NCBI GenBank assembly: GCA_958009085.1
Contig: OY253673.1
Span: 1,364,001 to 1,428,000, forward strand
Direction of reading: 5' to 3'
DNA from: Protoeuglena noctilucae
Lineage: Eukaryota
DNA: 64,000 bases
Shown piece after piece: positions 3,501-42,500 of the stretch. The position numbers were made by a program, and so were the translations under genes. Positions within the stretch are counted from its first letter, which is position 1. The number at the start of each line of letters is the position of its first letter. The notes under the pieces are model-generated. The model saw only the letters and a program-made list of their open reading frames with translations, did not search any database and was not told the DNA's origin.

Positions 3501-4153
3501 TTGACATAGAGACTCTTGGCATGCAGGAAGCGATGGGGGGGGTGCAGAGTGAGGGTACGAGGGGTGGGTGTTCTGCTTGACAGAGACCCTAACCCTAACC
3601 CTTGACATCCCGCTCTGCGACCGCATGCTCGCTCTCATGTTCCCACCCCCCCAAAGCCCAACCCTAACACCCCAACCCCCTCGCCTTCTCCGTCTCCCCC
3701 TACCCCAACCCCCCTCCCCCCCCCCTCGCCATCACGTCCCGTCCTCCCCACCCCCAACCCCACCCCAACTCCCCCCCCACCTTCTCCGTCTCCCCCTGCT
3801 TCCTCTCCACGTCGTCCCTCATCGCCCTCAGCTCCTCCACCTCCTGCTCGTCCCTCACGTGCGACGCTACCTGGGACTGCAGCTCGTCCACTGCCGCCTG
3901 CAGCCGGGCCACCTGGGGCAGAGGGGGGAGGGGTTGGGAGTGGTCAATAACCAGGGACAGACACCGATAAGGCTAAATGATTGATGAGTCGATTGACTCT
4001 AACGCACAGAGCTGCTGCTCTTGGTCTCCCTGCCACGCAGCAAACAACCACCTCCCTGCTCTCAAACGCATTCCCCGCTCACTTCCCATCTAAGTTACCC
4101 CATCCCCTCATCTCCCATCCCCCCTCACCTCCTGCTGCGCCGCGTCGCGCTCG

Positions 4154-22986: not shown

Positions 22987-23491
22987 GGCGCCCCGGGACG
23001 CGCACGGCTGTCTGGCGCCGGCCCGGTCCCTCCCCTCGACGCGAACGGCCCGTCAGGCGACCGCGGCAACTGGGCTGGAGGCAAGCGTTGCAGGCTCGTA
23101 AACAGCCTATGTGGATGCCTGGACGATGAAATACTTGTAACTGATTGTGTTCGTGTGCTCATATGTCGGCGGGAGGCGCTGCAGGCGGTGCTTGAGGGCC
23201 GGCGCTCGCTGACGCGGGCACGTTCCCATGTCAGACAGCCCGCCAGGAGCTGAAGGCCGACGACAGCCTTCCCAACCCCACTCTGCGATTGCCAGTCGAG
23301 ACTGGTGTTTCATCGGAGCCGCTTTGTAGCTGGCTCGCCTTGAAACCGACCTAGCGCGACGCGGGGGGAAGTTAAGAGCTTGTGCGCTGCCACTGTGTTG
23401 GTTATAGAGTCATTCGGTAGCCAGGCCCGGCGTCGCGGTTTCGGGCGCCCCCCGTTGGCCCCAGGCAGCTGGGCGGGGCGCGAGACTCGAG

Positions 23492-26400
23492 ATGGAGGGC
23501 GAGAGGAGCCCGAGTCCCAGGGAGGGATCGGGGCAGGAGAAGCACGCTGGGTCACCCTCGCCCAGGAGGGTGCGGAGCCTCAGCCAGGACCCGCGGAGGT
23601 GCGGCGCCGGGAAAGGGGCTAACAGGCCCGCGATGCGAGCTCTTTGGACTCTGAGCCGTTGCCTTGCAATACTTTGTGGTCTCCTTAGCGCGTCCTGGCG
23701 TTCCTGTGGCGACGCGGCTCCGGGATCGCGCCGCGGCGACCGAACGTCTTGCGCATCGCTGTTCTGTGCTCGCAGCCACACCGTGAGCGCCAAGCGCGTC
23801 GAGCGGTCGCTGACTCCGTCGCGTTCGCTTGAGAAGATCGCGGAGGAGCACGCGGGGGCGGTGGCGGGGCCCGCGCCGGACACGGTCGAGGCCTTGCTGG
23901 ACGACGACGCACGCCCGCCCTCCCCGCGCGACGCCCCGGCCCGCCGCGCCTCCCGGTCCGCGTCGCCCGGCAGATCGAACGGAGAAGTACCGGAGATCTA
24001 CCGCGCGGAGGCCGGCCGCCGCTCCCCGCGGCGCAGGTCCTCTCCCAACGGCCGTGCATCCCCTCCCCCCCGCGTGCCCCGCGGATGGGAGCGCTACTCC
24101 CCCGGACGCGCGCGTCGGGAGCGGCAGGAGCGAATGGAGCGGGGAGACGGGGGAAGGGGCCAGGACCGGGATAGGTGGGGCGGCGATGGCTGGGCGGCAG
24201 CGTCTAATGCAAAGCGAGGTTCTCGTTTAGATGCTGGGTCGTGTTATTGTTGCAATAAGACACAACGGTTTGTTGTCTCTCGCGTGCACAGGGAGGGCGA
24301 GAGGGGCAGGGAGGGGGGCAGGGAGCGCGAGCGGGGCCGTGAAAGGGAGGGCGAGAGAGAGCACGGCAGAGAGAGGGAGCGAGAGAGAGAGCGGGGGCGT
24401 GAGGGCGAGAGGGATCGCGAGAGAGAGCGCGGGAGAGATCGCGAGGATGGCAGGAGGGAGCGCGGTGACGGCCGGCGTGGCAGCGAGCGCGAAGAGGGCG
24501 AGCTGCCAGACAGGGATCGGGGGGATCGGGGGGGCAACGGTGGGGGCACCGGCGGCGGCAGCGACGACCTGGATCGCCTGCGCGCGGACAAGGCCAAGGC
24601 TGGCCCCGCGGGGGGAGTGTACGTGCCCCCCTTCCGGCTCAAGCGTATGATGGCGGAGGCGGCCGACCGCACTTCCGAGCAGTACCAGCGCATGACGTGG
24701 GACGCCCTGCGCAAGGCCATCAACGGAATCGTCAACAAGGTCAACGCCGTTAACATTCGGGAGGTGAGCAAGCGAAGGGGTGGCGAGGAGAGGGACGGGG
24801 TGTGGTTTGCGCATCGGTCACTGACCCATGCGCTCACTCAGTCACGCATGCGCTCACTCACTGATGCACTCACTCACTAGCTCACCCACTAGCTCACTGA
24901 CTCACTCCTTCACCCACTCATCCACCCACCCACCTCCCCTCTCAGATCCTCCCCGAGGTGTTCCGCGAGAACCTCATCCGCGGCCGGGGCCTCCTCTGCC
25001 GCTCGCTGATGAAGTCGCAGCTGGCCAGCCAGGCCTACTCCCCCGTCTACGCCGCGCTCGTCGCCGTCATCAACACGAAGCTGCCGGAGATCGGGGAGCT
25101 GCTCCTGCACCGGCTGCTCCTGCAATTCAAACGGTCCTACCGCCGCAACGACAAGCCGGTGTGCGCGGCCGCGCTGTCGTTCCTAGCTCATCTGACCAAT
25201 CAGGGCGTGGTGCACGAGGTGCTGATACTGGAGATACTGGCGTTGCTGCTGGAGGCCCCGACGGACGACAGCGTGGAGTTGGCGGTGACTTTGACAAAAG
25301 AGGCGGGCGCGACGATGCAGGACGTCGCCCGGCAGGCGCTGGCGGCGGTGCTGGACCGATTCCGGGCCGTGCTGCACGAGGGGAGCATTGGTGAGGGTGG
25401 GGTGGGGTGGTGGGGGGAGGGGTTGTGCTGCACGAGGGGACGATTGGTGAGATGGGGGGGGAGGATAAGTGTTTGCGTGGGTGGAGAGTGGTGGGCGGGG
25501 GGGGGGCGTGTACGATGGTGGGGAGCGTTGTTAGGTTCAACATGTAATTAAAGCCCTCGCATCCCACACCATCAACCCCTATCTCTCTCATCTAATCCCA
25601 GACAAGAAGGTCCAGTACCTGATCGAGGGCCTGCTCGCCAGCGCCCGCGCGGGGTTCGCCGAGTCGGGCCACCCCCCCCGCCCTGCTGGCCTGGATTTGG
25701 TGGAGGAAGACGATCAGATCACGCACGGCGTTACGCTGGACACCAAGTGCGACGCGCAGACGTTGCTGGATGTTTTTAAGGCTGACGATGCGTTTGAGGA
25801 GCACGAGGGGCAGTGGCGGCGCATCCAGGGAGAAATGCTGGGGGGGGGGGAGGGGGAGGTGAGGGGTGTGGAATGGGGGATGGTGAGGGGGAGATGGGTG
25901 GTGGTGGGGGAGGTGAGGAGAGGGGGATTTGCTAGCGGTGGGTGTGGCTTAATGGGCTGACGGTCGATGACGCTCGCTTCACGCCAGCCACGTTGAGCGC
26001 TATGCTGTGCATGAAATGACAGTGAGCCATGCTCTTATTTACATCTTCTTATTGTTATTATATCTTATTATACATTCTCATCGCAGGAGTCTGGTTCTGG
26101 CTCTGAGGAGGAGGGCAGCGACGAGGAGGGGGAGGGGGAGGAGGGGGCGGGCGGGGAGGGCGGTAAGCGCGTGGAGATTGACGACATGACGCAGACCAAC
26201 CTGGTGAGGATGGGCAATAAGTGGGAATGGCGATGATTGTAATGCTCATCAATAGCTACTTCTTACTGCACATCACGCAACGGCAATCTCACTCTAACCC
26301 CCCATCTCATCCCAGGTCAACCTGCGCCGCACCATCTATTTGACCATCATGTCTTCCCTTGACTTTGAGGAGGCGGGGCACAAGCTGATGAAGATTCCAC

Positions 26401-28784
26401 TGTCTCCCGGGCAGGAGATCGAGATGGTCACCATGATTCTGGAATGTGCGAGCCAGGTGAGAGGAGCGTAACTCATTCAGTCACTTTCCCACCTCACTTT
26501 ACTCACCATCTCGCGCGCCACCTCACCTCACCTCCCCCACCACTCACCCCACTCTCACTTATCACATTCCCCCCCCTCACTTCCACCATCACAGGAGAAG
26601 ACCTACAACCGCTTCTACGGCCTGCTGGCCCACCACTCACCCCACTCTCTTGACACCACTTTTCATTACCCACTACTCACTTATAATTGCCTTCTTTCCC
26701 ATCACTCACAGGAGAAGACCTTCAACCGCTTCTACGGCCTGCTGGCCCAGCGCTTCTGCAACCTGCGCCGCGAGTACCAGGGCCAGTTCGAATCGGTGTT
26801 TCAAAAGCAGTTCGGGCTCATCCACCGACTGGCGACGACCAACAAGATCCGGAACGTGGCCAAGTTCTTCGCGCACCTTTTGGCGACCGACGCGATCTCG
26901 TGGGCGGTGCTGGGGGTGGTGCGGGTGACCGAATCCGACACCACCTCCAGCAGCCGCATCTTCCTCAAGTTCCTGTTCGTGGAGCTGTGCGAGGTGAGAG
27001 ATGGGTGTGTGTGTGTATTAATATAGATGGGGAATGTTGTGAATGTTGTGATTGAGCATCTTCCTCAAGTGTGCGTGCGACCATGAAATGACCATAGTCT
27101 CCATCGTTCGCATCGATCACACGTACTCCCCCATCACAACTTGCCACAGGAAATGGGCATGGCATTGCTGAAATCGCGGCTGGATGGTTATCATGGTTAT
27201 CGCTTACATGATTCGCTTTCATCACATTTACCAACCCTCTGTAACACAGGAGATGGGCATGGCATCTTTGAAGTCCCGACTGGAGGAGGCCGACAAGGCA
27301 GAGTGGTTCACGGGGCTGTTCCCGGCCACCAGCGTGCCGGACCTGAGGTTCGCCATCAACTTCTTCTGGAACATCGGGCTCAACTTCCTCACGGGTGAGA
27401 TGATTGTTGTAAACAATAACTGACTTGTTATGGAACATCGGGCTCAACTTCTTGACAGGTGGGGGATGGTGGAGAGGGATTGGGTAATGGCTTACTCGCA
27501 CCCTCACTTACGCAGTCACTCACCCAAATCATCCCTCTTACACTCACTCACTCACCCATACTCTCCCTCCCGCCAGCTGTGCGCAGAGATGCCCTCACTC
27601 ACTCACTCACTCACTCACTCACTCACTCACATACTCATCCCCCCTTTCACAGAGAAGCCCCGCCAGCTCTACGCCGAGCTTCCCAAGCTCCCTCACTCCC
27701 TTCCTCCCTCCCTCCCTCACTCACTCACTCCCTCACTCACATTCTCACTCACTCCCTCACTCACACACATCCTCTTTTCTCATTCACAGAAAAACCTCGC
27801 CAGCTCTACGCCGAGCTGCCCAAGCTGCTTGCCGAGCGCGCCCGCCTCACTGCCCAAGCACAGCCCCAGGCGTCCCCATCCACATCCACATCCACCTCAT
27901 CCTCATCCTCATCATCGTCATCCTCATCCTCATCGTCTTCTTCCTCTGACGATTCGAGTTCTGACACCACCAGCTCTGACACCAGCTCTGACGCCAGCTC
28001 TGGCGCGTCGGAGGAGGGGGGCGGGCGGGGGGGGAGCGGGGGGCAGCGGTGAGGGGTTAGGGAGATTTGGGGCTGGGATGCGATGACAGCATGATTGCGT
28101 GGGTGCAGTGTGATTGCTGCACGCGCGTTGCAAGCAGCGTGGGGGAATGTGCGAGTGCGAGTGCGATGAGTGTATGGATCGTTGGCCTCCCTCTGCCCAT
28201 ACGCCACCCCATTCGCATCTCCAGCCACCTTTTCACCCAATTCACCCAAACTTACCCACTTACCCACCCCATCCCTCTCCCCACCACTCTACCCCCGCAG
28301 TCGCGACGACCGCGCACCCCACGCCACTCATCGCCGCGACCTGCCACCCCCCCCCGAGCACCGCCGTCGGTCGGCAGACAGGGCGGGCGGCGATTATAAG
28401 GGTAATGGTGGCAGTAATGGGAGGGGGGGGAGGTCGAGGTCGGCTGATAGGAGCGGCGGGTGGGGGGGGAGGGGCGGGGAGAGGGATGGGAGGGGTGAGA
28501 GGGAGAGGGGTGGTGGTAGGGATAGGGATGGTGGTTATGAGAGGGAGAGGGAGTGGGGCGGTGGCAGGGATGGTGGGAGGGAGAGGGAGAGGGAGAGGGG
28601 TAGGGATGGTGGTGCTTATGAGAGGGAGAGGCAGAGGGGCGGGTACAGGGGTGAGCGTGAGGGGTGGCGCGGGAGGGAGGGTGCGGATCGCGGCAAGCGT
28701 GAGAGGAGCGGGGAGAGGGAGAGGGAGAGGGAGAGGGAGAGGGAGAGGGAGGGTGGGGATCGGTACAAGCGCAGCAGGGCGTGA
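23492..28784 (+). CDS. CWC22: Pre-mRNA splicing factor CWC22 (MIF4G + MA3 domains, RE/RS-rich termini)
   Basis: [85 protein letters not shown]. Confidence 0.96.
25425..27690 (+). repeat. Intronic copies of CWC22 exon ends with splice sites
   Basis: 25425-25452 copies 25369-25396; 26590-26632 copies 26707-26749; 27056-27070 copies 26956-26970; 27145-27184 copies 27245-27284; 27431-27461 copies 27367-27397; 27648-27690 and 27569-27594 copy 27785-27827. Confidence 0.9.
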
Positions 28785-29379
28785 GGGGTGGAGTGGGGGT
28801 GGGAAAGAGATGGGCGAATGGGAGTTGAGTGGGGATGGATGGGGTGGGTTGGCGTGCGTGGTGGTTGCGAGAGGGGGTGGCTGCGGGAGTTTGAAAGGGG
28901 TGTGACTGGTGCGTGGTTGGCGCGCACTGCGCTGCGGTAGATTTGAATTTCGAAATGCAATGTGCAGCAATACCAGTGAACTGTGAGTTGACGCCCCACA
29001 TGCCACATGCGCATGCGATGGGGCTTCTTTTCACAGCCAACAATCTGCTGTTGATTTCAAACGCAAGAGAACGCTTTCGCACATCTCCCAAACATGCACG
29101 TGTGCTCTTGACATCATGTCCATGCCAGCCCACCCCACTTGCACCCCGCACTGCCCCTCATCAACACCACCCCTCATTTTTTTCCCCCCCTGCGTTTCTT
29201 AGCCCCCTTCCCCCCCTTGCCCGCCCCCTCCTCTCCCTCCGCATCGCCCGCATCCCCATCATTTGTTGGTTCCTGCAAAGCATGACAGAGAGCCACACTC
29301 ACGCTTGCAGTCTCACACTCCAACGTACCCCCCGTTATATAAACATAAACACCCTTTCCAATCCATGCCCATACAACAT

Positions 29380-31647
29380 TCAAGCAAACTGCCGCCAGTA
29401 CTTCGCAACGACTTCATCATCCAACAACACCACACCACCCCTCCTCACCTCCCCCTCCCCCTCCCACGCATCCACCCCCTCCCCCTCCTCCCCCCTCCCC
29501 CGCTTGCCCCTTTTCCCCCTCCTCTCCCTCACAGGCCTCGTCAGCTCCCCATCATCACAAGCCACGGGCCCCACCCCTCCCCCCAGCAGCGCCGCCACTG
29601 ACGTTTCGACGTCAGACCCCTCCACGCGATACAGCACGTTTCGGGACAAAGCAGACTCCACCAGTGCTCGCCAACTGGACTGGGAGGCTCTGGGTATGGG
29701 TGATTGGGGGGGGGGGTGTTAGTGTTGTTACTACTAATAGTACAAGCAGTACTGACCAACGTACTGGTTAGTAATAAAAATAATAATGAGACTGGAAGGA
29801 CATGTGGGGTTTGGAGAGGGGTGGGCAGCGCAGCAATGCACCATTGCAGCCACCACAGCAGCAACTGTTGCCACCAGACAACCGCACCCCAACCACATCC
29901 CCAGCCAAGCCCCCACCCCACATTCATCCATTTCAAAATACGATCATTCCAATTCGCCCCACCTCCCCCAACCAAATCCCACCTGAGCGCGGGCGCGTTG
30001 CCCATCACAATCACCGAGCACCGCCCCCGCGTCAACCCCACGTTCATCCGCCTCTCATCGGCCACGAACCCAATCGCCCCACTGGCGCCCGTTCTGACAG
30101 CGGAGAATATGACCACGTCCTTCTCTCTGCCTTGGTATCCGTCGATGGTGTTGACATCCAGCTCTGATGCGGATGGGCCGAGGTCACGCGATAGGCAGTC
30201 GCGCAAGTGGCGCACTTGGGCCAGGTAGGGGCTGATGACGCCCACGTCGCGGGGTCTGTTGTGTGAGGGGGGGGAGTGAATTGAGTAAGCGTGGTGAGTG
30301 GGGTAGCACTGGAACAGCCCATGCACGCCTACCCCACTGCCCAACAACAACATATATCTTCATACCCCATACCCAATACCCCACACCCCCCGCATCTCTC
30401 ACCTGAGTGTCGGGTAGCACTTGAACAGGTGTTGCAGCAGCCGCACCGCACATGTCGCCTCCGCTCTATTCACCAGCGACGCCCCTGCAGACTGCCGCTC
30501 TTCACTCCCACGCACGTCCCAAAAGGCGAAGGGACCAAGGCAGGGCTCGGAGTGCCAGGGGCGGGAGGAGCGGTCGGCCACGTCTGGATGGGGGGGGGGG
30601 GGGGGGGGGGGTGTGGGTGGTGTGGGGTGGGTGCGGGGTGGGTGTGGGTAGCAGTGTGGGGTGGGCGGAAGAGGTTGTGATGTGCGAGCGTATGGGAGTG
30701 GTGTCAACCATGCCCACTCTCACCTCACCTGTCCTGGCATCTTATCACACCCAACAGACCAAAAGCAACCACCATCCCATCCACCCCCATCACTCACCCG
30801 GCCCGTCCTGCAGCCTGTTCTCGTAAAATGCCCCATATCACTATTAACCATCACACCCATCCATCACAACATTACTGCATAGCTAGTAATACTAGTAATA
30901 CTAACCGTCACCAACAGTCGTCAACCATCACATCCACACCCCCCCCTCTCCCCTCACCCGGCCCGTCCTGCAGCTTGTTCTCGTAAAATGCCTCGGATGG
31001 GAATCTCCGAATCTCCGGGTGCATTCGGAACTGCGTGGTGAGCATGCACACGGGGTGGCCGGCCGCCTCCAGCCGCTTGAACAGCGAGCAGTCGTAGCTG
31101 GGTGTAAGGGGGGTGATTGATGTGGTGCGGATAGCTGACGTTAATAGTCAATCACCCAACCCCTCTCATCTCACCCGTACTTCATCGCACGTCAATCACA
31201 CAATCAATCAATCACCCTTCTCCTCTCACCCGTACTTCTTGGCGGTGTTGGAAATGACGGTGGCGGGCAGCTGGTTAGGATCACCCACCAAATAACACTG
31301 GCGGGCACCCTGGGGGGGAGATGGAGGGGGTGGGAAGGGTGAGTGAGCAATTGCATGCAGGACATGAGACAGACATCTATGATCTCACTAACCCCATCCA
31401 TGCCACCCATGTTATTCGTACTAGCAACTCTTACTATTCACATCGCCCATGTCACTCTCACCTGGCTCAGCGGCACCAGCGTGGATGGCTCCACCGCCTG
31501 TGCTGCCTCATCAATGATCACGACATCAAAGGGGGCCGTCATCTTGGCAAACACCCCCGATCCGGCGAACGACAGCGTGCTGCACACCACCGATGCCTCT
31601 TCCAGGATTGACATTCGGACCTGGTCCTTCTGGGGGAGATGGGGGGG

Positions 31648-31686
<39 letters not shown>

Positions 31687-34600
31687 GAGGTGAGGGCGAG
31701 GGTGGGGGTGACGGGGGAGGGGAGGGTGGTGGGTGAGAGTGGAGTGGGGGAGTGCATGGGACTGTGTCGGGTGGGTGATGGACCGTGGCAACTTGTCACT
31801 GAAGCATACATGCACCATCACACCACCATACCCCCACCCCCTCTCACCTGCGCCCTGGTGAAGTGTAGCATCCGTTTACCCATTACCAACCCCCTCTCAC
31901 CTGCGCCCTCGTGAAGTCGAGCTTCTTGCTATCTACCCACCATCACAACCACCCCACCACTACCCCTACCATCACCCCCTGCACCCCTTATTACCTGCGC
32001 CCTCGTGAAGTCGAGCTCCTTGCCGTCCTTGCCCGTCGGTGCCTTCTGCCCTCCCAGCCGCGCAGCCACGAGGGAGTCCAGTGCCACCGCTTGGACGGAG
32101 TGGTGGGGGTGCACGCCGATGCGGACCAGGCCTGGGGGGGTGGGGGTGAATGAGTGAGGGAATGGGGGAGTGGGGAGGGAGTGAGAGTGAGTGGATGTGT
32201 GAGAGAGAGTTATGCAACTGAGTGCATGTCAACTGTGTCACCCCCATGCAAATCTACACATGTTAAACAACCCCCCCCCTCTCTCCTCTCCCCTCACCGG
32301 GCGTGAAGGCCGTCCCGTCGGGCGCCAGCAGCCCCTGCTGCATCACCCGCACCACCACCTCATCCAAAGCGGAGTTAGACGGCGCGCACACCAACACACG
32401 CGCGCGGGGGCCGCCGGAGCCCACGGGTCTGGGGTCGACGCGCCGGGCCATGCCGAACAGGTCCGCGCCCTCCGTGGCGGTGTGGGGGGAGCTGGGGAGG
32501 GCGTCGCGGGGGTCTGGAGGAGGGGGGAGTGGGGTGAGGGGTGTGGGTGGGGGTGGGGTGATGGGTTGATGGGGTGAGGGAATGAGTTTGCCGCTGTCGC
32601 GATTGCTGCCATCTGCCCACCACATCTCATTTCGTTTGCTCCATCTCATATCATCCCCTCTCATCTCATCATCTCACCGACCGTGTCCTCGTCTGCCCCC
32701 AGCCACGTCATCCCATCTCATCTCATCTCACATCGCCTCATCTCATCTACCACTAATCTCATTTCATCTCATCTCATCTCATCTCATCTCATCTCATCTC
32801 ATTTCTCACCGACCGTGTCCTCGTCCGCCCCCAGCCACGGCGCCGCCCGCCGGTGCAGAGAGACGAATGCGTCGTCATGCGTGCCGTCACTCGCGGAGTT
32901 GGCGGCCGTGGGGGTGGCAGACGAGCGAGCGGAGGGAGCTGCGGGGGGATGGGGGACAAATGCTTGATCGCTCTTAAGGTTTACTAGGTGAATGATAGTT
33001 CTGTGTCTGCGCGCCCTGCTCGTCCCTTTCCATCTCCCGTCACTCAACCAACCCTCTCTTCATCTCTGTTCTCTACCCCCCCCCACCTCAACCCTCCCAT
33101 TATACTACATATAGACACTCCATCACCACCACCACCACCCCCTCACCCTCCTTCCCCACCCCCCCCGCGTGCCCCGCGGGCACGGCGTGCAGCACAATCG
33201 ACAGCAGCGCCATGATCGTGGACGTCTTGCCAGTCCCCGGGGGTCCCTTGATGAGCACTAAGGGGCTGCCGTCCAGGCCTGCCTTGGCTGCCGACAGCTG
33301 GGCGGGGTTGTACTGAGAGAGGGGGGCATGGGTGCTGTGGTGTAAGGATGGAAGCAAAGCAAGAGAGCATTGGCTGCCGACAGCTGGGCCGAGTTGTACT
33401 GAGAGAGGGGGGGGGGAAGAGAGGGGCTGTGCTATGCTATGTGTGCTATGTGTGCTGTGTGTGCTGTGCTGACTGTGACTGACTGTGACTGTGACTGTGA
33501 CTGTGACTGTGACTGCACTGTCTTGTGCTGTGCTGTATCCCTGTCCCTCACCGCCAGCTCCATGGCCTCTGCCATGCCGCGCGGCACGTCCATCGCACGA
33601 CCCGCCGCCTTCCCCGACCCCTCAAGGCGCTTGCCACTGTGTAAGAAGACAAGAGATGGTGTGGATGGGAGGGAAGAGAGGAAAAGTAGTCCAGGCAACA
33701 GAGCGAGAGGGACGAGTGCGGCTGGGAGTGGCAGAGAGTTCGTCATGCCGCGTGCCGCCCTGCAACATGCACCGCCACGCATGCCATCCCATAAACACCC
33801 CATGTTTATTAACACCCAATACACAAACACCCCATCTAACGACGCCCCTCTCCTAACAATAACAACTCTCACCTCATCAAAAGGTCCTTGTACGGGATGG
33901 CGTCGACCCGGTGCAGCGCCACCCACTCGCGCACGATCGTCGACAGGTTGGCCAGCCGCACGCACCAGAAGCCGCAGTGCTTTTCGCCCAGCGCAGCGCG
34001 GACCGACTGGCTGCGCACGCGGCCCGCGCCCTGCGACGACAGTGGGGATCCATGGGGGTGGACACGCACCGCTAGTAACTACCCTATCGTGAGCATACAA
34101 CAGCAACCACGCCCCTCGGTGTCGTCAAAGCACGTCTATTGCGTTGCAACGACTGATATTCCCCCCCCCCCCCCCCCCCCCCCCTCCCCCCCATTCTCTC
34201 CGCTCTCTCGCCTGGTGGGTGTGGTCCGCCAGGCACAGCCGCACCCACGCGCGGTCCCTCCGCAGAGACTCGACCATCCCCAGGGCGTGCACCGCCCCCA
34301 CCTCCCGCACCACCGCGCCGCCGGCCGGGCGCTCCTTGGCCAGCAGGACCAGGTCATTCTCCCTGCAGACGCGGGGCACGGGGGACGGGCACGTGAACAC
34401 GAAGCTCCGTTCACCGGGTCGCGGACGGCGACGCGGCCGCAGAGCGCGTCTGAGCGCAGTAGATAGAAAATAGCTGAGTATTTCGCGATCGTTCGCGCCA
34501 CTCGCTTGAAGTCCTGCGTGTCGCCCGCGTTCATGAGCACCTCCACCGTGTCGAAGCGGTCGCTGGACTCGACCGCCGTCACCACGCACGTCACGGGCTC

Positions 34601-34986
34601 CTCTGCGGGATAATTAAAGCAAATATATCACTGTGGCAGCCAAGCTACGCGGCGAAAATGCCCATGCGCGAAGCGTTTCCGCTCACTTGCAATCTCGTCG
34701 GCCCCATGGACCACCTGCGCGAGGCACTCCTGCACCATCAGCGGCTCAAAGACGGAGACGTACTGCTCCGTCGAGGTGAACTCCTCCGGGACTTGCTTGA
34801 GGTCGTCGGGAGCTTTCCCGGCCTGCAGAGACGGCACGGCACACAGTGGGCGGCCACGCCCCGCCAAGCGCACCAGATGGTCCCAAAGCGCAGTGGACGC
34901 ACCTCAAAGTCCCTAAAAATCTCATTGTAGTTCCAGCTCAGCACCAGCTCCTGCAGGCTGGCGATGTGCTTGGCGATGTCCGCCAT
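29380..34986 (-). CDS. MAA3: SEN1/senataxin-family SF1 helicase of the short MAGATAMA3 type
   Basis: LVLSWNY N-terminus; ENDLVLL; LSTIVREW; KGPPGTGKT; APWLG..PRDALP insert; VLVCAPSNSALDE; IIDEAAQAVEP; VGDPNQLPATV; QFRMHP; TIDGYQGREKD; RRMNVGLTR. Confidence 0.9.
30793..33410 (-). repeat. Intronic copies of SEN1/MAA3 exon ends with splice sites
   Basis: 30793-30832 copies 30953-30992; 31169-31183 copies 31224-31238; 31843-31865 and 31896-31929 copy 31992-32023; 32672-32707 copies 32804-32839; 33370-33410 copies 33284-33324. Confidence 0.9.
31648..31697 (+). repeat. (GTGAGG)n hexamer microsatellite in a SEN1 intron, (CCCTCA)n on the sense strand
   Basis: Direct tandem repeat just upstream (sense) of the acceptor. 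Confidence 0.9.
33472..33514 (+). repeat. (GACTGT)n hexamer microsatellite in a SEN1 intron
   Basis: Direct tandem repeat. Confidence 0.9.
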
Positions 34987-35450
34987 GACCCCCGCCCGCG
35001 CCCTGCGCGGGGCAGCGGGTGCCCAGCTGCCGGCTCTCCCGGCTGCTCTTCACAACTTCTGCGAATCGCGCCGCTGAGCCGACAGTGTCAGGCCGCCGAT
35101 TGGGGCGCTCAAGCAGCGCCCGTCACGCCCGAGCAAAGCGGCGCTTGTGTTGCTTCAAGTACAGGCTCTGCTTGATCGATCGCGATGCCAGGGATACCAC
35201 GAACAGGTGCTGGCCCGCGCAAGCCCCAAAACACCAAAGCACGACACGGGCCGCCAGCCTCGCCAGTGTCGTGGACCAGCTGGGGACCGGCAGCCCGCAC
35301 GAGCACCCGGCGGACCAGGCTCCCGCCTGGCCAGATCAGCGCGTGGACCCATCGGCCCTTTCCACGCTCGCAAGGCCTGCAGTTGCGTTTGAACCTCCAC
35401 CTTGTGCTGCCCGCTCATCGCGAAGGCTCAGACTGAATTCCTCGCCAAGC

Positions 35451-38400
35451 ATGAGCGTATTGGATCCCTTGGATCCGCTGGCCGCGGGGGAGGCGGTGAA
35501 GGTCGTCGCGGACAGCGCGCCACTCACGCTGCCACCGATCGTCAAGCTCCCCGCGGTCCTCGTCATCACCGTAGCAAAGACGTCCCTGTCCGCGTGAGTG
35601 TGATGGCGCTCCAAGGGCCCCGGGGCCCTGTGGTGGGCGGGACTCGCGACCGTGCGCGAGCATCTTCCGCCGTGTCGCCGCGGTGCCCATCCGGCTCGCG
35701 CAGCCACAGATCCTGCGCGATTGTGCTGCCTTGTTTCCTGGGCAGTCCTTGGAAGCCCACGCCAGGGGCCCCCTTGCGCCGTTCCAACCATGCTCTGTCC
35801 AGCATTGTGCTCCGCGCCTTCCCGCAGCGTCCAGGCCGTGGCGCTCCTCACCTACGATGGAATCGTCGGCATCCCCATCGCTGTCCAGGTGCGCGCGCGG
35901 CATCCTCGCCGCGGTGGCGCAGGTCGCGCTGAAGGGATGCTCCACACACGCTGGCCCCCCGCCGCAGCGAGAGGCCTTCTCGCAGCGTCCTCTGCGCGCC
36001 GATTGCTTCCTTACGTCCTCCACATTCGTCCGCAGGTGGTCGGTCAAACCGCCTGGCAGGTGATTACGGGCTTCCCATCCTTCCTGCTCCACCTCCCCCA
36101 ACTGCTCCGCGATCTGCCGTCCGGCGCCGCCGCGGTCGTCTTCGACCTCGCCGCTTTCACGCACGACCGCGTCTGGACGCCCGTCGCTGCGGCTGCGGCC
36201 ACCGTGGCCGCTGCGGCCGCAGCTGCCGTGCGCCTGGGTGCAGGGTACGCGGGCGTGGCGTGGCGCTCCGTGACCGGCGCCGCGGGCGAGGTCCCCGCGG
36301 ACGTCAAGCTCTGCAACGACTTTTTTATCTACCTCTTCACCGGCCGCGAGCCGGCCGTGCTCCAGGAGCTGCGGGACCAGAATGAGCTGCTGCAGGCGGT
36401 GGTGATGGCCGTGGTGGCGGTGGACGCCCTGCCGCCCCTTCTGCACATCACCCTCGCGCTGTTCGTGCTGGTGAGGACTTACTGCGCATCGCCATCGCTT
36501 TGGCCGCATACGGGCGTATCATTGTCACCACACCAGCACTCCGCCCGTGCCGCCTAGTGCCACCCAAGGCACGCCCACCCTGTCCCCCACCTCATACCCC
36601 ACTCGCTCCCTGTCCCACTCAGGGCACGTTCTTTGAGATGGTGTTCATCTGGATACCCCTCTTGATCAAGGCCCTCGTGCGGCGCATGCTGGGCTGGCAA
36701 GAGGAGCCCGCGGGGCTGCTGGGTGGTGCGCCTGAGGCCCGGCGTCTGGTGGTGATGGGCGCGGCTGCCCCCGCGGCGCTGCCGGGCCCGTCGCGGCGCA
36801 GCGGCAAGAAGGGCAGGGGCAGGGGCAAGAGCGAGGAGGGGGAGCGTGTGGTGGTGTCGGGTCCCTTGACGCTGGCGGAGGTGCAGGCGGAGCTAGACAG
36901 GGCAGGGAACGTCGTGCTGCGGCTGTCGGGGCGCACGGTGGAGGGGAAGGGGGACTTGGTGCTGCGGTGAGGGAGATGGGGTGGGTTGCGTAATGTTGTG
37001 CGGCAGTCATGGGCGATGCATGGAACAGGCAGGCACTCCTATCTATACTAGATAGGTTGTTGGTACCTGTTGATTCATAGAGTGGTCTCTATTATCGACT
37101 GGAATCCAAGAGTTGCCCGGTATGAGAATGTACACACCGCCCTTACCCCACTGCCCCCCCCGCAGCCGCCCCAACACGCTGGTGTGTGACGCCAGCCTTG
37201 CCATCACCGGCTCGGTGCGCATCGCGGCCCCCGGCTGCGGCCTCGAGTCGGTGCGGGTGACCAGGGACGCCCACGCCTCGCCGGCCGTGGTGGTGCGGGA
37301 GGGACCGGCCACGCTGCAGGGGGTGGCGGTGCGGGGGGGGAAGGGCGCGGCCGTCGTCATCGAGTGAGCTTTAGATGATGCTGGCTGCGAACGAAGCATG
37401 CACATGCTCACTCGATTTCACCTGCCCTTACTCACCCGCACCCACACACACCCCCACCATAGATACCCTCTAAGCTAACCCCCCTTTACCTATCCCTTTC
37501 ATTCCCAGGGGTCCCCTCGACGATCGCCAGTCTCTTCGCGTGGCCATAGACTCCCTCGAAGCGCGGGGCTGCGGCGGGGGTGGCGTGGCGGCCCGTGGGG
37601 CGTGCGCAGTGACGGTGCAGGGCAGCACAGTCGCGGACTGCGGGGGTATGGGTGTGCTGGCGGACGGGGCTTCGACGGAAGTGGGACTGGCTGCCTGCGC
37701 CATCTCTAACTCTGCGACTGCCGGGGTGCGTGCGACCGCGGGTGCCAACTGCTATGTGAGAGAGACGACGGTGGAGGGCGGCGGGGCGGGGCTGCAGGCG
37801 CGGGGGCGCGACACATCGCTGGAGGCCGTGCAGTGCCGCGTGGCGGGGTGCGCGGGGGCGGCGGTGGCGGCGGGGGACCGTGCTTTGGCGATGGTGTTTG
37901 CGTCACACGTGGCGGGGGCCAGGGGGCCTGTGGTGGTGTCTGAGGGGGAGGGGACGCTCGTGGAGATGACGGAGGGGAGCGAGGGGGCCGAGGGGGGGTC
38001 CGTGGCGGCGCAGGCGGGGAACGCCGTGGTGGCCAAGGTGAGGGGCGGCGGCGGTGGGGGTGGGGGGTGGGGGGGGCGGTGGTGGTAGTGGAGGTACTCA
38101 TGCGTAGCGTGGGTGGCAGGGGTGTCAAAGGGTGTGGCATTGGCATCGTTTTGACCGATCAATCGTTCACGCCGGCTGCGTTGTGCCGCACATCTGCCAC
38201 GGCCAGTGCAGTGCAGTGCAGCACCAACACCGCTACCACCCCCTTTACCGAGCCAGTTGCCACCCCTCGTATCCCCCCCCTGCTTCGTCTCTCTGCAGTC
38301 CGGTGGCCGCGTGAAGCTCTCCCGCGTGGTGCTGTCCGCCCCCGGGGGTGTCCCTGCCGTGGCGGAGGGGCCTGGAAGCGAAGTGGATCTGACCGACTGT

Positions 38401-39149: not shown

Positions 39150-39547
39150 GGGGCGGGATGGTTATGGAAGAGGGAGAGTAGCTGTGGGGTAATGCATAGG
39201 GGAACTCAAGAGGGGCTGTTTGGGTGGAGGGGTGAGGTGGAGTAGCTGTGGGGTATGCGTGGTGTGGGTGGGTGGGAGAGTGTAGGCGTTTGAATAGGAG
39301 TGTGTTCGTATCGGGAGACATACCGCTGGGTGCATTCAAATGGGCGGCAGCTGCTATCTGATATTCGTGAGAACGAGAGGCAACCGGAGACTACATTCGT
39401 TGGCGAAACACGGTCATGCCGTCGCGCTGTGCCCTGCGTGCGGTGTTGCGCAAACCTCACGCACCCTCTGCACTTGCACCTCCGCACCCTCCTCAGCCCA
39501 CTCTTTTGGAAGTCGTCTGCTTGCTTGACCCCCCCTCAGCACACATC

Positions 39548-42500
39548 TCAGCACACCCCCTTGAAGGTGGTCTGCTTCACGAGCATGCGGTTGGCGATGG
39601 GAGACAGCTCCGGCACTGCCGTGGTGACTGCTGCGCGCCCCTTGGCCACCGTGGCCTCCAGCACATGCACGGCACGCTCGATGTCCGTGGCGAGCTTGTC
39701 GGCCTGGGGAAGGGGATGAGTGGGGGTGGGGTGGGTGGGGTGGGATAGTTACTAGAAAAGTATGCATTCGCTGCTACCTTCACTATTCATCCATGCACAT
39801 ACTGCCACCCTCACCATGCGCACAGTCATTTCAACTATGCAGCCACCCTCACCATGCGGGGTCACACCATCCATGCAATCTGCAGCTCTCACCATCCGCA
39901 GAGTGAGGTCCTCGCGGATGACGGCGCGGAACATGACGATCTCCTCCGCACCCTTGGGGGCCTTGTACGCAGGCACCACCCACCTGGGAGTATGTTAGAA
40001 GCAAGAGGGGTCAGCGAATGCTTGTGCTCACTTCCTCGTTGGTTAATATCACCATCTCATGGACTTGTCATCCATGACCATGTCGCAGCGGTTGGGGGTC
40101 AGCGAATGCGGGCGCGCATCGGCTCTCATCGCTTACCATCCCATGCATCCCATATATCTATCGCTCATCCATAACCATCTCTCCCATCACGTCTCACTCG
40201 CCTGTACGCGAGCAGCTTCTCGGCCAGGTCGAATTCGTCATAACCACGCTTGGTGCCGTCCTCCTTGGGGCTCAGGGAGAAGGCCACCAGGGGGACGCCC
40301 AGGTCCTGGATGTGATGAGAGATGAGAGAGATGAGAGAGATGAGAGAGATGGGAGATATGAATTGAGGCATGGTGTGACATGGGGAGGGTTAGGGGTGGA
40401 GTGCACGAAGAACCCCTCTGTTACTGCTACTACTCCACCCGCTCATCTGTCTCACTAATACTACGCCACTATTACAATTCCACCCCTCAGCCCCCCCCAA
40501 TCAATCACCTGGTGCCTCTGCACAAAGAACCCCGTGGCCAGGAGTCTGTTCGCCAGGTATTCCCTCACGTTCATGAGGTTGCCCATGATGCGCTTGAAGC
40601 CGCTGCGGCCCAGGCGCATCAGCTGGTAGTACTGGGGGGGGGGGGGGGGGGAGGGGAGGGACAGGTATGGTGAGAGTGGTGGGTAGCAATGATACTGATA
40701 CTGCGGAGAGGGGGGGGACAGAAAGGTAAGGTATGGTGCAAGTGGTGATAGTGAGGATAAGTCATTCGCTTTACTCTGCGCTCTGCTCAATCATCCACTC
40801 ACATTACACAGTCATCCACTCTCACCTGGGCTAAGATGGGCCAGGACGGCTTGGAGAAGTTGAGCGTGACGCTCGGCTGGTCGCTGCCCAAGTAGTGCGT
40901 GTGGAACACCAGGCTGTCGGGCAGGTGCGCTGGGGGGAGGACGAAATGTAGTGTTTTGCGGGGTTTTGTAGTGTTTATAGTGTATCAGCCAAGCAAAGGG
41001 ATGAATGATGCGAGGGCCGCGTGACGAGTGCCGAAGCGACAGCACGCTTCGTACGTGTTTGGCCTGTTCGCAAGCACAAACCCCCATCACCCACGCCCCT
41101 GCCACCCATCCCAACCCACCCGCGTCGCGCCACATCACCCAGCCGACGCCGGGGTAGACCAGCCCGTACTTGTGTCCCGACACGTTGATCGACGCCACGC
41201 GCGGCACGCGGAAGTCCCAGGGCAGGTCCGCGTGCACAAAGGGCGCCACGAATCCCCCGGACGCCGCATCCACGTGAATTTCGACGTCCGGGCCGCCCTC
41301 CTCCGCCAGCTTGTCCAGAGCGCGCGAGATGCCGGCGATGTCCTCATATGCGCCGTTGTACGTGCTGCCCAGGATCGCCACCACGCCGATCGTGCGCTCG
41401 TCGACATAATCCTTGACTGCATCGGGGCTCAGCACGAGGCCGGACTGCTCGGAAACGGGGACCAGGCGCGGCTCGACCTCGAAATAGCGCGCGAACTTCT
41501 CCCAACAGATCTGGGCGTTGGACCCCATCACGAGGTTCGGGCGATCGGTGTCGAGGCCCCGGGCGCGCCGGGCCTGCTGCCATCGCATCTTGAAGGCCAG
41601 CCCCGCCAGCATGACGGCCTCGCTCGAGCCGCATGTGGCGGTGCCGGTGCCGGGGTCACGCTCGGGGGCGTTGTACAGGTCCGCCATCATGTTGACGCTG
41701 CGAGGGAGTGAGAGAGAGTGAGTGGGGGAATAGTAGTTACTGCTCACCAACCAACTGTCGCACTCTGTCGAATGCTCAGCCATATGATGCCGCACCATCA
41801 TCTCATAGTGACTTGGCATGACGCAGCCGGTCGTCGTGACTTACTCATCGTGACTATATATCGTCCTCACCATCGGTTGTGGATCTCCGTGGAGGCGGGG
41901 TACTCGTCCATGTCGACCTGGTTGATGTTGAGGCTGAGGGTGGATAGGAACACACAGGTGAGGCATAGCACGTTCAAGGCCAGACGTGCATGGGCGTGCT
42001 GCAGTCACGCATACGGCATGCATTGTTCTCCCAACCACGCACCTGCTCATGATGATCTCGTGGGCCTCCGGTTCCATCCACGTGGTGCAGAAGGACGCCA
42101 GGTTCAAACGCGGGTTGTGATTGAGCATGAGCTCGTCCTGGATGACCTGCGCCGCCACCTTGGCCGGCAACGCGCGGGAGGGGAAGCGGTTCGCCTCGCT
42201 GAGCACGCTCGTGTCGTCGACGAGGCGAGAGGCAAAGGCGGGGTAGATGGCATCTTGCAACGAAAGGCCGGCCTCGATCAGCGAGTCGACGCGGACCAAC
42301 TGCGGTCATTCGAGGCTCGACGATGGTGTGACGACGCCCGGAGCGCGCGACTGCGCCATGGGACTGCGGAAACTTGGCAACTACCGCCACGGACGTGATC
42401 GCGAGTCCCCGATCGTCTTTCTCGCTCTCACCCGCTTGCCATCGGGGCTGCGGACCGAGTCCGATCGCTTGGTGAACGATTTCGTGTGTAACGGCGCTGC

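What the first reader, a model, noticed from the sequence alone, without database searches (positions are those of the whole stretch)
25369..33410. 'Junction echoes': introns carry short copies of the adjacent exon end together with its splice site
Seen: at least 7 copies in CWC22 and 6 in SEN1/MAA3, plus others in KCBP (3683-3701) and GAD (39809-39858). Each is 15-45 nt, lies within about 40-220 nt of the original, is in direct orientation and sits inside the flanking intron. Most include the splice dinucleotide. Donor-side example: ..CAGGACGGGCCGG|GTGAG at 30953 and 30793. Acceptor-side example: CACAG|GAGAAGACC at 26707 and 26590. At 26629 the copy rejoins intronic CCCACCACTCACCCCACTCTC (also at about 26536) through a CCCA microhomology, the signature of a tandem duplication. 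Established: tandem genomic duplication across splice sites is a proposed route to intron gain and sliding. Inference: this genome has an active process that repeatedly duplicates exon-intron junctions, leaving decoy or alternative splice sites. The offsets I checked (56, 94, 100, 137 nt) shift the frame, so use of an echo site would probably give NMD-type isoforms.
Basis: partly seen in the sequence, partly recalled or inferred. Interest (0 to 1): 0.82.

Follow-up and report, generated by a model that had tools for sequence, protein, structure and literature searches.

The report
Splice-junction copies inside algal introns
In two neighbouring genes of a GC-rich marine green alga, a dozen introns carry short extra copies of the adjoining exon end together with its splice site; the copies are real DNA, are skipped by splicing, and look like local duplications across splice junctions.

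Summary
I found 14 echo copies at 12 splice junctions of a CWC22 gene (+) and a SEN1/UPF1-type helicase gene (-). They are 15-44 nt ungapped (up to 99 nt gapped), 78-98% identical and 53-160 nt from the original. All are direct and all lie inside the flanking intron.

Block shuffles give 0-1 such pairs against 22 observed. Contigs from an environmental metagenome run reproduce most pairs with no differences. RNA contigs join the outermost sites of six CWC22 introns and skip the echoes.

The best reading is local DNA duplication across exon-intron junctions, tolerated because the outer site is still used.

Three features do not fit a plain neutral tandem-duplication model:
- No intron-only duplicates of comparable quality are seen.
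- The exon part never exceeds 38 nt.
- In three CWC22 pairs, 14 of 16 differences fall on third codon positions.

In this window the echoes are confined to about 8 kb: 12 of 38 junctions, against 0 of 36 at signature-predicted junctions elsewhere. A genome-wide active process is therefore untested, since no genome is held. Not every echo site would shift the frame: 117, 132 and 147 nt are multiples of three.

The parts
23295..28783 (+). CWC22 gene (MIF4G/MA3 splicing factor). Coding exons from 24946: 24946-25390, 25602-25858, 26087-26203, 26316-26456, 26712-26993, 27250-27394, 27790-28048, 28301-28783.
   Evidence: The ORF stays open across all joins. Pfam MIF4G E=3.8e-10. Eight intron joints are seen in RNA contigs X9 and/or X12; the intron 25859-26086 is not among the joints listed.
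29560..36500 (-). SEN1/UPF1-type helicase gene (AAA_11 + AAA_12). Introns in + coordinates: 33313-33550, 32939-33146, 32514-32809, 32132-32297, 31630-31994, 31310-31461, 31098-31229, 30584-30957, 30256-30402, 29690-29982. The 5' limit is approximate.
   Evidence: Frame-consistent GT..AG search by coordinates. The joined ORF is open. Pfam AAA_11/AAA_12 hits reach E=6e-31. Only the last intron is seen as an RNA joint.
25369..25451 (+). C3 donor echo. Original 25369-25395 (22 nt of exon plus GTGAG), copy 25425-25451, offset 56. The spacer is a 29-nt G-run.
   Evidence: The RNA joint 25389>25601 uses the upstream site.
26536..26749 (+). C6 acceptor echo. Copy 26589-26632, original 26706-26749 (6 nt intron plus 38 nt exon, 43/44 identical), offset 117. 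The unit start is repeated at 26536-26556 = 26629-26649 (21/21), joined through CCCA.
   Evidence: The RNA joint 26453>26709 uses the downstream site. The echo path is in frame and open.
26956..27070 (+). C7 donor-side echo (weak). A 15-nt exact copy of exon positions -37 to -23, offset 100, without a clear GT.
   Evidence: Flank test 15.0 against a maximum of 10.0 in controls.
27145..27284 (+). C7 acceptor echo. Copy 27145-27184, original 27245-27284, offset 100, 83% identical.
   Evidence: The RNA joint 26991>27248 skips it. 6 of 8 core differences are at codon position 3.
27359..27461 (+). C8 donor echo. Original 27359-27397, copy 27423-27461, offset 64, 87% identical. The echo donor reads GTGGG.
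   Evidence: The RNA joint 27393>27789 skips it.
27569..27826 (+). C8 acceptor echoes. A partial third copy lies at 27569-27588. The main copy 27646-27689 matches the original 27783-27826 (offset 137, 91%). Gapped homology is 27592-27689 vs 27730-27826 (98 nt, 84%).
   Evidence: All 4 core differences are synonymous third-position changes.
30301..30428 (-). S9 donor-side echo. A 17-nt copy (16/17) of exon positions about -26 to -9, offset 111, with no GT retained.
   Evidence: Flank test 16.0 against 10.0.
30766..30992 (-). S8 donor echo. Copy 30793-30832, original 30953-30992 (35 nt of exon plus GTGAG, 39/40), offset 160. Gapped homology covers 71 nt at 86%.
   Evidence: X5 contig 30674-31633 is identical.
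31148..31238 (-). S7 donor echo. Copy 31159-31183, original 31214-31238, offset 55. The homology lies mostly on the intron side (16 nt).
31836..32023 (-). S5 donor echoes. Two copies (31836-31864 and 31889-31929) of the original 31983-32023. The real donor reads GTAATA; both echoes read GTGAGA.
   Evidence: Only the GTAATA site keeps the frame. X5 contig 31723-32535 is identical.
32672..32839 (-). S3 donor echo. Copy 32672-32707, original 32804-32839 (35/36), offset 132. The spacer is a 5-nt microsatellite. Gapped homology covers 99 nt at 85%.
33284..33412 (-). S1 acceptor echo. Original 33284-33326, copy 33370-33412, offset 86, 95% identical.
   Evidence: X5 contig 32812-33464 is identical.

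Best explanation
The echoes are products of repeated short local DNA duplications that straddle an existing exon-intron junction. Units or patches are about 30-100 nt, laid down 53-160 nt away in direct orientation.

Likely sources are replication slippage or unequal exchange at the low-complexity intron sequence, or fill-in and end-joining repair of breaks. After such an event there are two near-identical donors or acceptors. The spliceosome keeps using the outermost one, so the mRNA is unchanged and the inner copy becomes intron.

The inner copy then decays. Its exon-derived part stays recognisable because it is complex sequence and its partner is held by coding constraint. The intron-derived part is lost quickly through slippage and indels.

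Shown: the copies exist, they are direct and intronic, and outer sites are used in CWC22.
Inferred: the duplication mechanism, neutrality of the copies, and the selective filter that removes duplications with longer exon parts or wholly exonic ones.
For: - Only direct copies occur. No inverted exact repeat of 13 nt or more lies within 300 nt in the region, against 18 direct ones between 24.8 and 33.3 kb.
- C6 has both ends of a 97-nt unit repeated (21/21 and 43/44) and joined by a 4-nt microhomology.
- Homology continues 30-60 nt into the intron for C8a, S3 and S8.
- The spacer matches the upstream flank in 5 of 12 pairs at p<=0.005, and in one more at 0.03.
- Multi-copy cases (S5 with three copies, C8 acceptor with three) resemble small minisatellites.
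- Echo-bearing introns also hold microsatellites and G- or C-runs.
- RNA contigs from two samples join the outer sites of six CWC22 introns.
- Both kinds of change since the duplication are seen. Echo-specific replacements occur at residues conserved in four relatives (C3 S>T, C8 FF>LL). One replacement is in the resident exon: at C6 the echo keeps the Y found in 3 of 4 relatives.
- For nine of the pairs, 7 of 16 differences are at third positions. This fits a neutral copy beside a constrained exon.
- A single known analogue works the same way: the human F7 intron 7 minisatellite, where the most upstream donor is chosen (PMC1557585, abstract read).
Against: - In 6 of 12 pairs the spacer has no detectable second copy, so these are not clean tandem units.
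- Within the C6 unit, 65 nt carry 1 difference. The 36-nt middle is about 30% different and has a 26-nt insertion (my reading).
- Uniform tandem duplication predicts about half of the visible events to be intron-only or intergenic. All 12 observed are junctional (p about 1e-4; 0.004 if intron-only detection is halved).
- The exon part is never longer than 38 nt, although units reach 160 nt (p about 2e-6 under uniform placement).
- In C7a, C8d and C8a, 14 of 16 differences are at codon position 3 (p = 6e-4 against the 0.45 expected for a neutral copy; post hoc choice of pairs).
- In S5 the working donor is three changes away from the consensus that both echoes keep.
- Subtracting the offset from S9 would leave a 36-nt intron.
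- Echoes are absent from 36 junctions of 18 other introns of the same G-rich-start, C-rich-end type predicted in the window.
Confidence: 0.55

Rival explanations
1. The echoes are pieces of a diverged homologous copy of the same two genes: another haplotype, a gametolog-like region or a paralogous segment. They would have been left in the resident introns by aberrant or unequal recombination. Only exon-proximal pieces can be recognised, because the introns of the two copies no longer align.
For: - Conservation inside the echoes follows the constraints of a working gene. Exon non-synonymous positions and the GT/AG consensus are kept, while synonymous positions and intron parts differ.
- Third-position share of differences is 21 of 32 overall and 14 of 16 in three CWC22 pairs.
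- The C8a echo encodes the identical peptide with 4 synonymous changes.
- The S5 echoes carry a consensus donor that the resident lacks.
- The phenomenon is regional: one contiguous stretch of about 8 kb covering the 3' parts of two convergent genes.
Against: - No second copy is known, and the genome could not be searched.
- The 21-nt intronic match at C6 is 100% identical, which fits an in-place duplication and not a diverged homologue.
- The younger pairs show dN about equal to dS. Nine pairs have 7 of 16 differences at third positions.
- Echo-specific replacements at conserved residues (C3, C8d) look like decay.
- No known mechanism interleaves a dozen 30-70-nt patches at 100-nt scale.
- The codon-position signal rests on 16 differences chosen after looking.
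Confidence: 0.12
2. The echoes began as duplications but are now kept by selection as intronic splicing elements. Examples would be pseudo-donors or pseudo-acceptors that recruit U1 or U2AF/SR-type factors and reinforce choice of the outer site, or that provide regulated unproductive splicing of two RNA-processing genes.
For: - Positions equivalent to non-synonymous sites are conserved in the older CWC22 echoes beyond neutral expectation.
- GT or AG is retained in 11 of 14 copies.
- S5 has a weak working donor followed by two consensus pseudo-donors.
- The F7 work proposed that consecutive pseudo-sites stimulate the most upstream site (PMC1557585, abstract).
- Both host genes act on RNA.
Against: - No comparative or expression evidence of function exists.
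- A requirement for 20-38 nt of exon-like sequence is not explained by U1 or U2AF binding.
- Retention of five-letter motifs at about 7% divergence is not significant.
- A dozen separately selected elements in two genes is unparsimonious.
- RNA contigs show only the canonical isoform.
Confidence: 0.12
3. The spacers are insertions of mobile or filler DNA (introner-like or retroelement fragments), and the echoes are unusually long target-site duplications.
For: - In half of the pairs the layout is a-b-a, with no second copy of b.
- The spacers are relatively A+T-rich for a 65% G+C genome (my reading; intron G+C is 0.46-0.62).
Against: - No spacer or intron matches any other intron or any other place in the 64-kb window.
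- There are no terminal inverted repeats.
- Introner target duplications are 3-9 bp and flank the whole intron (PMC9860276, passages read). Here the repeats are 27-71 nt and sit at one end of a pre-existing intron.
- Several spacers do match the neighbouring intron.
Confidence: 0.05
4. The echoes are an assembly artefact, for example haplotype bubbles laid in tandem.
For: - The best DNA holders (X1-X4) may be the very sample the window was assembled from.
- The C3, C8-acceptor and S3 pairs are not bridged by a listed independent contig.
Against: - Contigs of an environmental metagenome run from another study (X5) reproduce five stretches holding 9 of the echo pairs with 0 differences.
- RNA contigs confirm the surrounding exon structure.
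Confidence: 0.02

Closest known systems
Human F7 intron 7 minisatellite (37-bp VNTR whose first unit spans the exon 7 / intron 7 boundary) with silent 5' pseudo-sites (PMC1557585; abstract read)
   Same: Direct repeats start in the exon end and include the donor. The authentic site is therefore followed by near-identical donors inside the intron. The most upstream site is the one used.
   Different: - F7 is one locus with a regular head-to-tail array of identical units, and affects donors only.
- Here there are 12 junctions in two genes, on both donor and acceptor sides.
- Here there are mostly two copies, with irregular and partly unrelated spacers of 24-120 nt and 78-98% identity.
Intron gain or sliding by tandem duplication of coding sequence containing a proto-splice site (Rogers model; Drosophila cases in PMC2891723, abstract and section 10 read; potato RdRp case PMC4974935, seen in the search listing only)
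   Same: A short tandem genomic duplication involves exon sequence and a splice motif. Splicing hides the duplication from the mRNA.
   Different: - In that model the duplication creates a new intron. The intron's 5' end copies the downstream exon and its 3' end copies the upstream exon.
- Here the intron already exists. The copy lies on the same side as its source, with its own splice site, and the intron is lengthened, not created.
Introners (transposon-derived introns with target-site duplications that supply a splice site; PMC9860276, passages read)
   Same: A duplicated bit of the insertion site including a splice dinucleotide ends up at an intron edge. They occur in marine algae.
   Different: - Introners are multi-copy families with 3-9-bp duplications flanking the whole element, often with inverted termini.
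- Here there is no family similarity within the window and there are no inverted repeats.
- Here the repeats are 27-71 nt.
Small tandem duplications from fill-in of staggered DNA breaks (Pol alpha-primase/CST then end joining; PMC8355091, abstract read)
   Same: It is a DNA-repair route that yields short direct tandem duplications at a break. It is a candidate source of the echoes.
   Different: - That process has no known link to splice junctions and gives contiguous tandem copies.
- Half of the pairs here have an unrelated spacer.

Membership tests
Junction-spanning tandem repeat with silent pseudo-splice sites (F7 intron 7 type) | Direct repeats whose outer unit spans the exon-intron boundary | tested here: met
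   12 junctions have a direct copy of exon end plus splice site in the adjoining intron.
Junction-spanning tandem repeat with silent pseudo-splice sites (F7 intron 7 type) | Head-to-tail units, with the whole period repeated | tested here: inconclusive
   The spacer matches the neighbouring flank in 5 of 12 pairs at p<=0.005, and two of those are microsatellite. It does not match in 6. Gapped homology covers 27-75% of the period.
Junction-spanning tandem repeat with silent pseudo-splice sites (F7 intron 7 type) | The outermost (authentic) site is used and the inner copies are silent | tested here: met
   RNA contigs X9 and X12 join the outer sites of CWC22 introns C3, C6, C7 and C8. This was not tested for the helicase gene. 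Contigs cannot exclude minor isoforms.
Junction-spanning tandem repeat with silent pseudo-splice sites (F7 intron 7 type) | Copy-number polymorphism between individuals (VNTR) | not testable with these tools
   Only contigs of runs could be laid, once. No close relative was found in metagenome contigs; the best was 66%.
Introner / transposon-derived intron | Sequence family shared by many introns | tested here: not met
   blastn of 19 introns against the window gave only the local echo matches plus two short matches (21 nt and 31 nt) elsewhere in the window, neither to another intron of the set. The rest of the genome could not be searched.
Introner / transposon-derived intron | Short target-site duplication flanking the whole element, and/or terminal inverted repeats | tested here: not met
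   The repeats are 27-71 nt and lie at one end of the intron, not at both ends. There are no inverted repeats of 13 nt or more within 300 nt.
Intron creation by tandem duplication of an AG|GT proto-splice site | The intron start copies the downstream exon start, and the intron end copies the upstream exon end | tested here: not met
   Each echo lies on the same side as its source and carries the same type of site (donor after donor, acceptor before acceptor). None abuts the opposite splice site.
Intron creation by tandem duplication of an AG|GT proto-splice site | The intron position is novel relative to orthologues | tested here: inconclusive
   tblastn of the joined CWC22 protein against 76 metagenome loci found a few loci that break near residue 410-417, close to intron C7. 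Most loci are uninterrupted.
Polymerase-theta-type templated insertions (features recalled, not read here) | Microhomology at tract junctions, with direct and inverted templated tracts mixed | tested here: inconclusive
   One clear microhomology (CCCA), but no inverted tracts.

The most novel reading that the evidence does not exclude
Junctions themselves are targeted, or the copies are retained by selection. A regional process would repeatedly copy a footprint-sized piece into the adjoining intron: at most 38 nt of exon, the splice site and 5-30 nt of intron. The copies would then be held under constraint as pseudo-sites that steer or buffer splice-site choice. That would allow the authentic site to drift, as at S5 where GTAATA sits beside two GTGAGA copies, and would give a stepwise route to splice-site turnover and intron sliding.
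Probability: 0.15. Interest if true: 0.8.

Novelty: new variant of a known kind. Interest (0 to 1): 0.55.

Why it matters
Young duplications across splice junctions are rarely caught. Single cases, such as the F7 minisatellite and a few intron-gain examples, have carried much of the argument about how introns lengthen, slide and acquire alternative sites.

Here a dozen such events of different ages sit in about 8 kb, on both donor and acceptor sides. RNA shows which site wins. This gives three things:
- A natural series for the rules of choice between identical neighbouring splice sites: first donor, last acceptor.
- A test of how much exon context a decoy may carry. None exceeds 38 nt.
- A test of whether authentic sites can degenerate once a spare exists.

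If a genome-wide scan showed the same density elsewhere, it would point to a lineage-specific mutational process shaping intron structure. If the effect is local, the question becomes what is special about this convergent gene pair.

Tried and rejected
- Whole-genome test: not possible, because no genome is held for the window.
- Close relatives for dating: the search for related loci in metagenome contigs gave 76 loci, the best at 66% identity and none close. The protein search gave one 82%-identical unnamed protein without DNA.
- Codon-usage gene map of the whole window: too weak to use. I replaced it with a signature-based intron prediction (GT[GA]AG, G-rich start, C-rich G-poor tail). This gave 18 unvalidated introns outside the two genes. 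At least one is mis-bounded: the KCBP donor is GTGGGG, so its 18-nt echo was missed.
- Introner or mobile-element idea: rejected.
- Rfam scan of 23000-36000: no family at gathering score.
- Intron ends pairing (G-rich start with C-rich tail): the fold is end to end, but the energy is not better than shuffles (z = -0.9 and -1.2).
- Cassette-exon or alternative-exon reading of the echoes: rejected. The C8 acceptor echo is followed by 100 nt without a single G, so there is no donor. Stops lie upstream of the C8 donor echo (my reading).
- Earlier notes of the scan: nothing on this genome or on look-alikes. One unrelated note on a fungal mitochondrial group I intron.
- RNA use of echo sites: no joint at an echo site is listed, but 17 joints were not shown and only contigs were laid. 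This is not evidence of absence.
- Parts of the region without contig cover in X5, X9 or X12 are not interpreted.

Full report
WHAT THE WINDOW IS

The window is 64 kb of a GC-rich eukaryote, about 65% G+C with a dip to 55-62% between 26 and 34 kb. No whole genome is held for it.

The stretch is found nearly whole in runs labelled with one organism. It is also found at 0.81-0.84 of sampled words in marine metagenome runs from another study.

The first long exon of the + strand gene has a MIF4G domain. Its best named relatives are green algae: Pedinophyceae sp. at 74% and volvocine algae at 72-73%. One unnamed protein reaches 82%. The - strand gene has AAA_11 and AAA_12 helicase domains of the UPF1/SEN1 type.

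GENE MODELS

For CWC22, the exons 24946-25390, 25602-25858, 26087-26203, 26316-26456, 26712-26993, 27250-27394, 27790-28048 and 28301-28783 give one open frame.

RNA contigs of two metatranscriptome runs (X9 and X12, two samples of one study) show these joints:
- 23596>23774
- 24761>24944
- 25389>25601
- 26202>26315
- 26453>26709
- 26991>27248
- 27393>27789
- 28047>28300

For the helicase, a frame-consistent GT..AG search by coordinates gave these introns: 32939-33146, 32514-32809, 32132-32297, 31630-31994, 31310-31461, 31098-31229, 30584-30957 and 30256-30402. The joined frame is open. The last intron, 29690-29982, is seen as an RNA joint. The first, 33313-33550, I read from the sequence. The other helicase introns rest on the open frame and splice motifs, not on RNA.

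Donors are very uniform: 16 of 18 read GTGAG.

THE OBSERVATION

I count 14 echo copies at 12 junctions.

In CWC22:
- C3 donor: 25369/25425, offset 56.
- C6 acceptor: 26589/26706, offset 117, 43/44 identical.
- C7 donor side: 26956/27056, 15 nt exact, no splice site.
- C7 acceptor: 27145/27245, offset 100, 83%.
- C8 donor: 27359/27423, offset 64, 87%.
- C8 acceptor: 27646/27783, offset 137, 91%.
- A third partial copy at 27569.

In the helicase:
- S1 acceptor: 33284/33370, offset 86.
- S3 donor: 32672/32804, offset 132, 35/36.
- S5 donor, two copies: 31836 and 31889 against 31983.
- S7 donor: 31159/31214, offset 55.
- S8 donor: 30793/30953, offset 160, 39/40.
- S9 donor side: 30301/30412, 16/17, no splice site.

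All copies are direct. All inner copies lie within the intron as defined by RNA or by the open frame. 11 of 14 keep GT or AG.

CHANCE

- A scan for complex short-range direct pairs (16 nt or more, 85% or more, 25-300 nt apart) finds 22 in the window, against 0-1 in each of 20 block shuffles. Of the 22, 12 lie in 25369-33410.
- Exact repeats of 13 nt or more: 31 observed, against 0-1 in 10 shuffles.
- I aligned each exon flank to the interior of its own intron, and as a control to the interiors of the 36 other introns. 12 of 38 junctions of the two genes score 15-41.5 and exceed every control. Control maxima for those 12 junctions were 9-12.

REALITY OF THE DNA

Contigs of metagenome run X5 cover 26165-27586, 29707-30579, 30674-31633, 31723-32535 and 32812-33464 with no other letters. 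These stretches hold the C6, C7 (both), C8 donor, S9, S8, S7, S5 and S1 pairs.

The C3, C8 acceptor and S3 pairs are covered only by X1, which may be the source sample, or fall where short-read contigs break at low-complexity runs. 721 pieces were not shown.

An assembly artefact is therefore very unlikely for most pairs and unexcluded for three.

WHICH SITES ARE USED

The RNA joints listed above use the upstream donor and the downstream acceptor in C3, C6, C7 and C8. Every echo in CWC22 is thus inside the excised intron. These are contigs, so minor isoforms cannot be excluded, and 17 joints were not shown. For the helicase, only the frame argues for the outer sites.

WHAT KIND OF EVENT

Points for local tandem duplication:
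- Only direct copies occur. There is no inverted exact repeat of 13 nt or more within 300 nt in the region.
- C6 shows both ends of a 97-nt unit repeated (21/21 and 43/44) and joined through CCCA.
- Gapped homology runs 30-60 nt into the intron at C8a (98 nt, 84%), S3 (99 nt, 85%) and S8 (71 nt, 86%).
- The spacer matches the adjoining flank in 5 of 12 pairs at p<=0.005, though two of these are microsatellite.
- S5 and the C8 acceptor have three copies.

No intron or spacer matches another intron or any other part of the window. This, together with the length and position of the repeats, excludes introners as described in PMC9860276 (3-9-bp duplications flanking the element; passages read).

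FEATURES A PLAIN NEUTRAL TANDEM-DUPLICATION MODEL DOES NOT EXPLAIN

1. No second copy of the spacer in half of the pairs.
- In 6 of 12 pairs the spacer has no detectable second copy.
- Within the C6 unit the two ends are nearly identical, while the middle is about 30% different and has a 26-nt insertion (my reading).

2. All events are junctional.
- I simulated uniform placement of units of the observed sizes in 25300-33600. Only 46% of viable, detectable events should straddle a junction with 15 nt or more of exon. The rest should be intron-only or touch the intergenic part.
- All 12 observed events are junctional: p about 1e-4, or 0.004 if detection of intron-only events is halved.
- Faster loss of intron-only pairs is a real bias that I cannot quantify. 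Both copies are free to change and the sequence is prone to indels.

3. The exon part is capped.
- It is 9-38 nt and never longer, although offsets reach 160 nt.
- Under uniform placement p is about 2e-6, or 4e-5 using only the seven units of 100 nt or more.
- Either longer exon context makes a decoy harmful and such events are purged, or the copied tract is intrinsically short.

4. Differences concentrate at third codon positions.
- Inside the homologous cores, 21 of 32 differences between echo and exon fall on third positions.
- In C7a, C8d and C8a the figure is 14 of 16. In the other nine pairs it is 7 of 16.
- A neutral copy beside a constrained exon predicts about 0.45. The overall excess has p = 0.015 and the three-pair excess p = 6e-4. 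The three pairs were picked after looking and the numbers are small.
- The C8a echo encodes the same 12 residues as the exon with four synonymous changes.
- Comparison with four relatives shows change on both sides. The echo carries derived residues at C3 and C8d. At C6 it keeps the residue found in 3 of 4 relatives, where the resident exon differs.

5. At S5 the working donor reads GTAATA while both echoes read GTGAGA.

REGIONAL CONCENTRATION

- Outside 25369-33410 the scans find only two coding-type tandem arrays (48.8-49.3 kb and 54.3 kb) and a few pairs of 15-18 nt.
- Using the intron signature of this genome (GT[GA]AG, G-rich start, C-rich G-poor tail), I predicted 18 further introns in the KCBP, GAD and other genes. 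None of their 36 junctions reaches the echo criterion. Two are marginal at 11.5-12.
- Fisher's test of 12/38 against 0/36 gives p = 0.0002, and against 2/36 gives p = 0.006.
- These introns are not validated, and at least one boundary is wrong. The KCBP donor is GTGGGG, and its 18-nt echo at 3683/3782 is real but low in complexity.
- The GAD copies are 12-17 nt. Two other repeats there are intron-only.
- The first two CWC22 introns and the upstream helicase intron have no echo.
- The dense cluster therefore covers the 3' parts of two convergent genes. Whether this reflects a local mutational or recombinational peculiarity, or is typical of many places in the genome, cannot be decided here.

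CONSEQUENCES FOR THE MESSAGE

The offsets 56, 64, 86, 94, 100, 137, 160 and 55 shift the frame. The offsets 117, 132 and 147 do not. The 117-nt path through the C6 echo acceptor is open and would add 39 residues. By my reading, the 132-nt S3 path meets a stop within four codons; one search is a different frame (also full of stops).

COMPARISON WITH WHAT IS KNOWN

- The closest described case is the human F7 intron 7 minisatellite. Its first unit spans the exon-intron boundary, and its identical downstream pseudo-donors stay silent because the most upstream site is chosen (PMC1557585, abstract read). The algal echoes behave alike on the donor side and show the mirror rule on the acceptor side. 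They differ in being many, irregular and mostly two-copy.
- The tandem-duplication route to new introns (PMC2891723, abstract and section 10 read) predicts cross-wise similarity: intron start to downstream exon. That is not what is seen.
- Small tandem duplications from fill-in of staggered breaks (PMC8355091, abstract read) are a possible source. Nothing here tests this.
- My two searches on duplication across splice junctions turned up no description of clustered junction copies of this kind in an alga. That covers only the open-access library searched, and supplements were not consulted.

VERDICT

The claim of an active genome-wide process is open.

I put 0.55 on local junction-spanning duplication with splicing-based tolerance and selective filtering. 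I put 0.12 each on a diverged-homologue origin and on selected pseudo-sites, 0.05 on mobile or filler insertions, and 0.02 on artefact. The rest is unassigned.

Noticed in passing
window 23599-33550 (19 introns of the two genes): Introns have a strongly polar composition. The first 40 nt are G-rich (G-C skew +0.5 to +1.0 in 16 of 19). The last 40 nt are C-rich and almost free of G (skew -0.4 to -0.94 in 18 of 19). Predicted folds pair the two ends, but energies are not better than shuffles (z = -0.9 and -1.2).
   Followed up: partly
window 31983-32000 vs 31889-31905 and 31836-31852: The working donor of helicase intron S5 reads GTAATA, three changes from the GTGAGA kept by both intronic copies. 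16 of 18 donors in the two genes read GTGAG.
   Followed up: partly
window 48790-49270 and 54290-54400: Two tandem arrays of 27-165-nt periods, of G/T-rich or C-rich units, lie in long open frames. They are probably coding repeats and are unrelated to splice junctions.
   Followed up: no
window 28400-28780: The CWC22 C-terminal tail is an 18/24-nt periodic array encoding Arg/Glu/Gly-rich repeats.
   Followed up: no
window 33416-33849: Summed contig depth jumps to 2598 (X1) and 1849 (X5) in this bin, against 10-270 elsewhere. The bin holds a (TGAC/TGTGAC)n-type microsatellite at about 33440-33520 that many contigs share.
   Followed up: no
window 25316-25350: The same foreign flanks adjoin this 35-nt piece of the CWC22 exon in contigs of X1, X9 and X12. 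Another transcript or gene in the same samples shares these 35 nt. It could be a paralogue and bears on the homologue rival.
   Followed up: no
window 39176-39255, 39804-39860, 40007-40110: The GAD gene region has three exact direct repeats of 15-17 nt, 38-88 nt apart. At least two are intron-only. Short local duplications therefore also occur away from junctions.
   Followed up: partly
window 26595-26711: Use of the C6 echo acceptor would insert 39 codons in frame with no stop. Unlike most other echo paths, it could give a protein isoform.
   Followed up: partly
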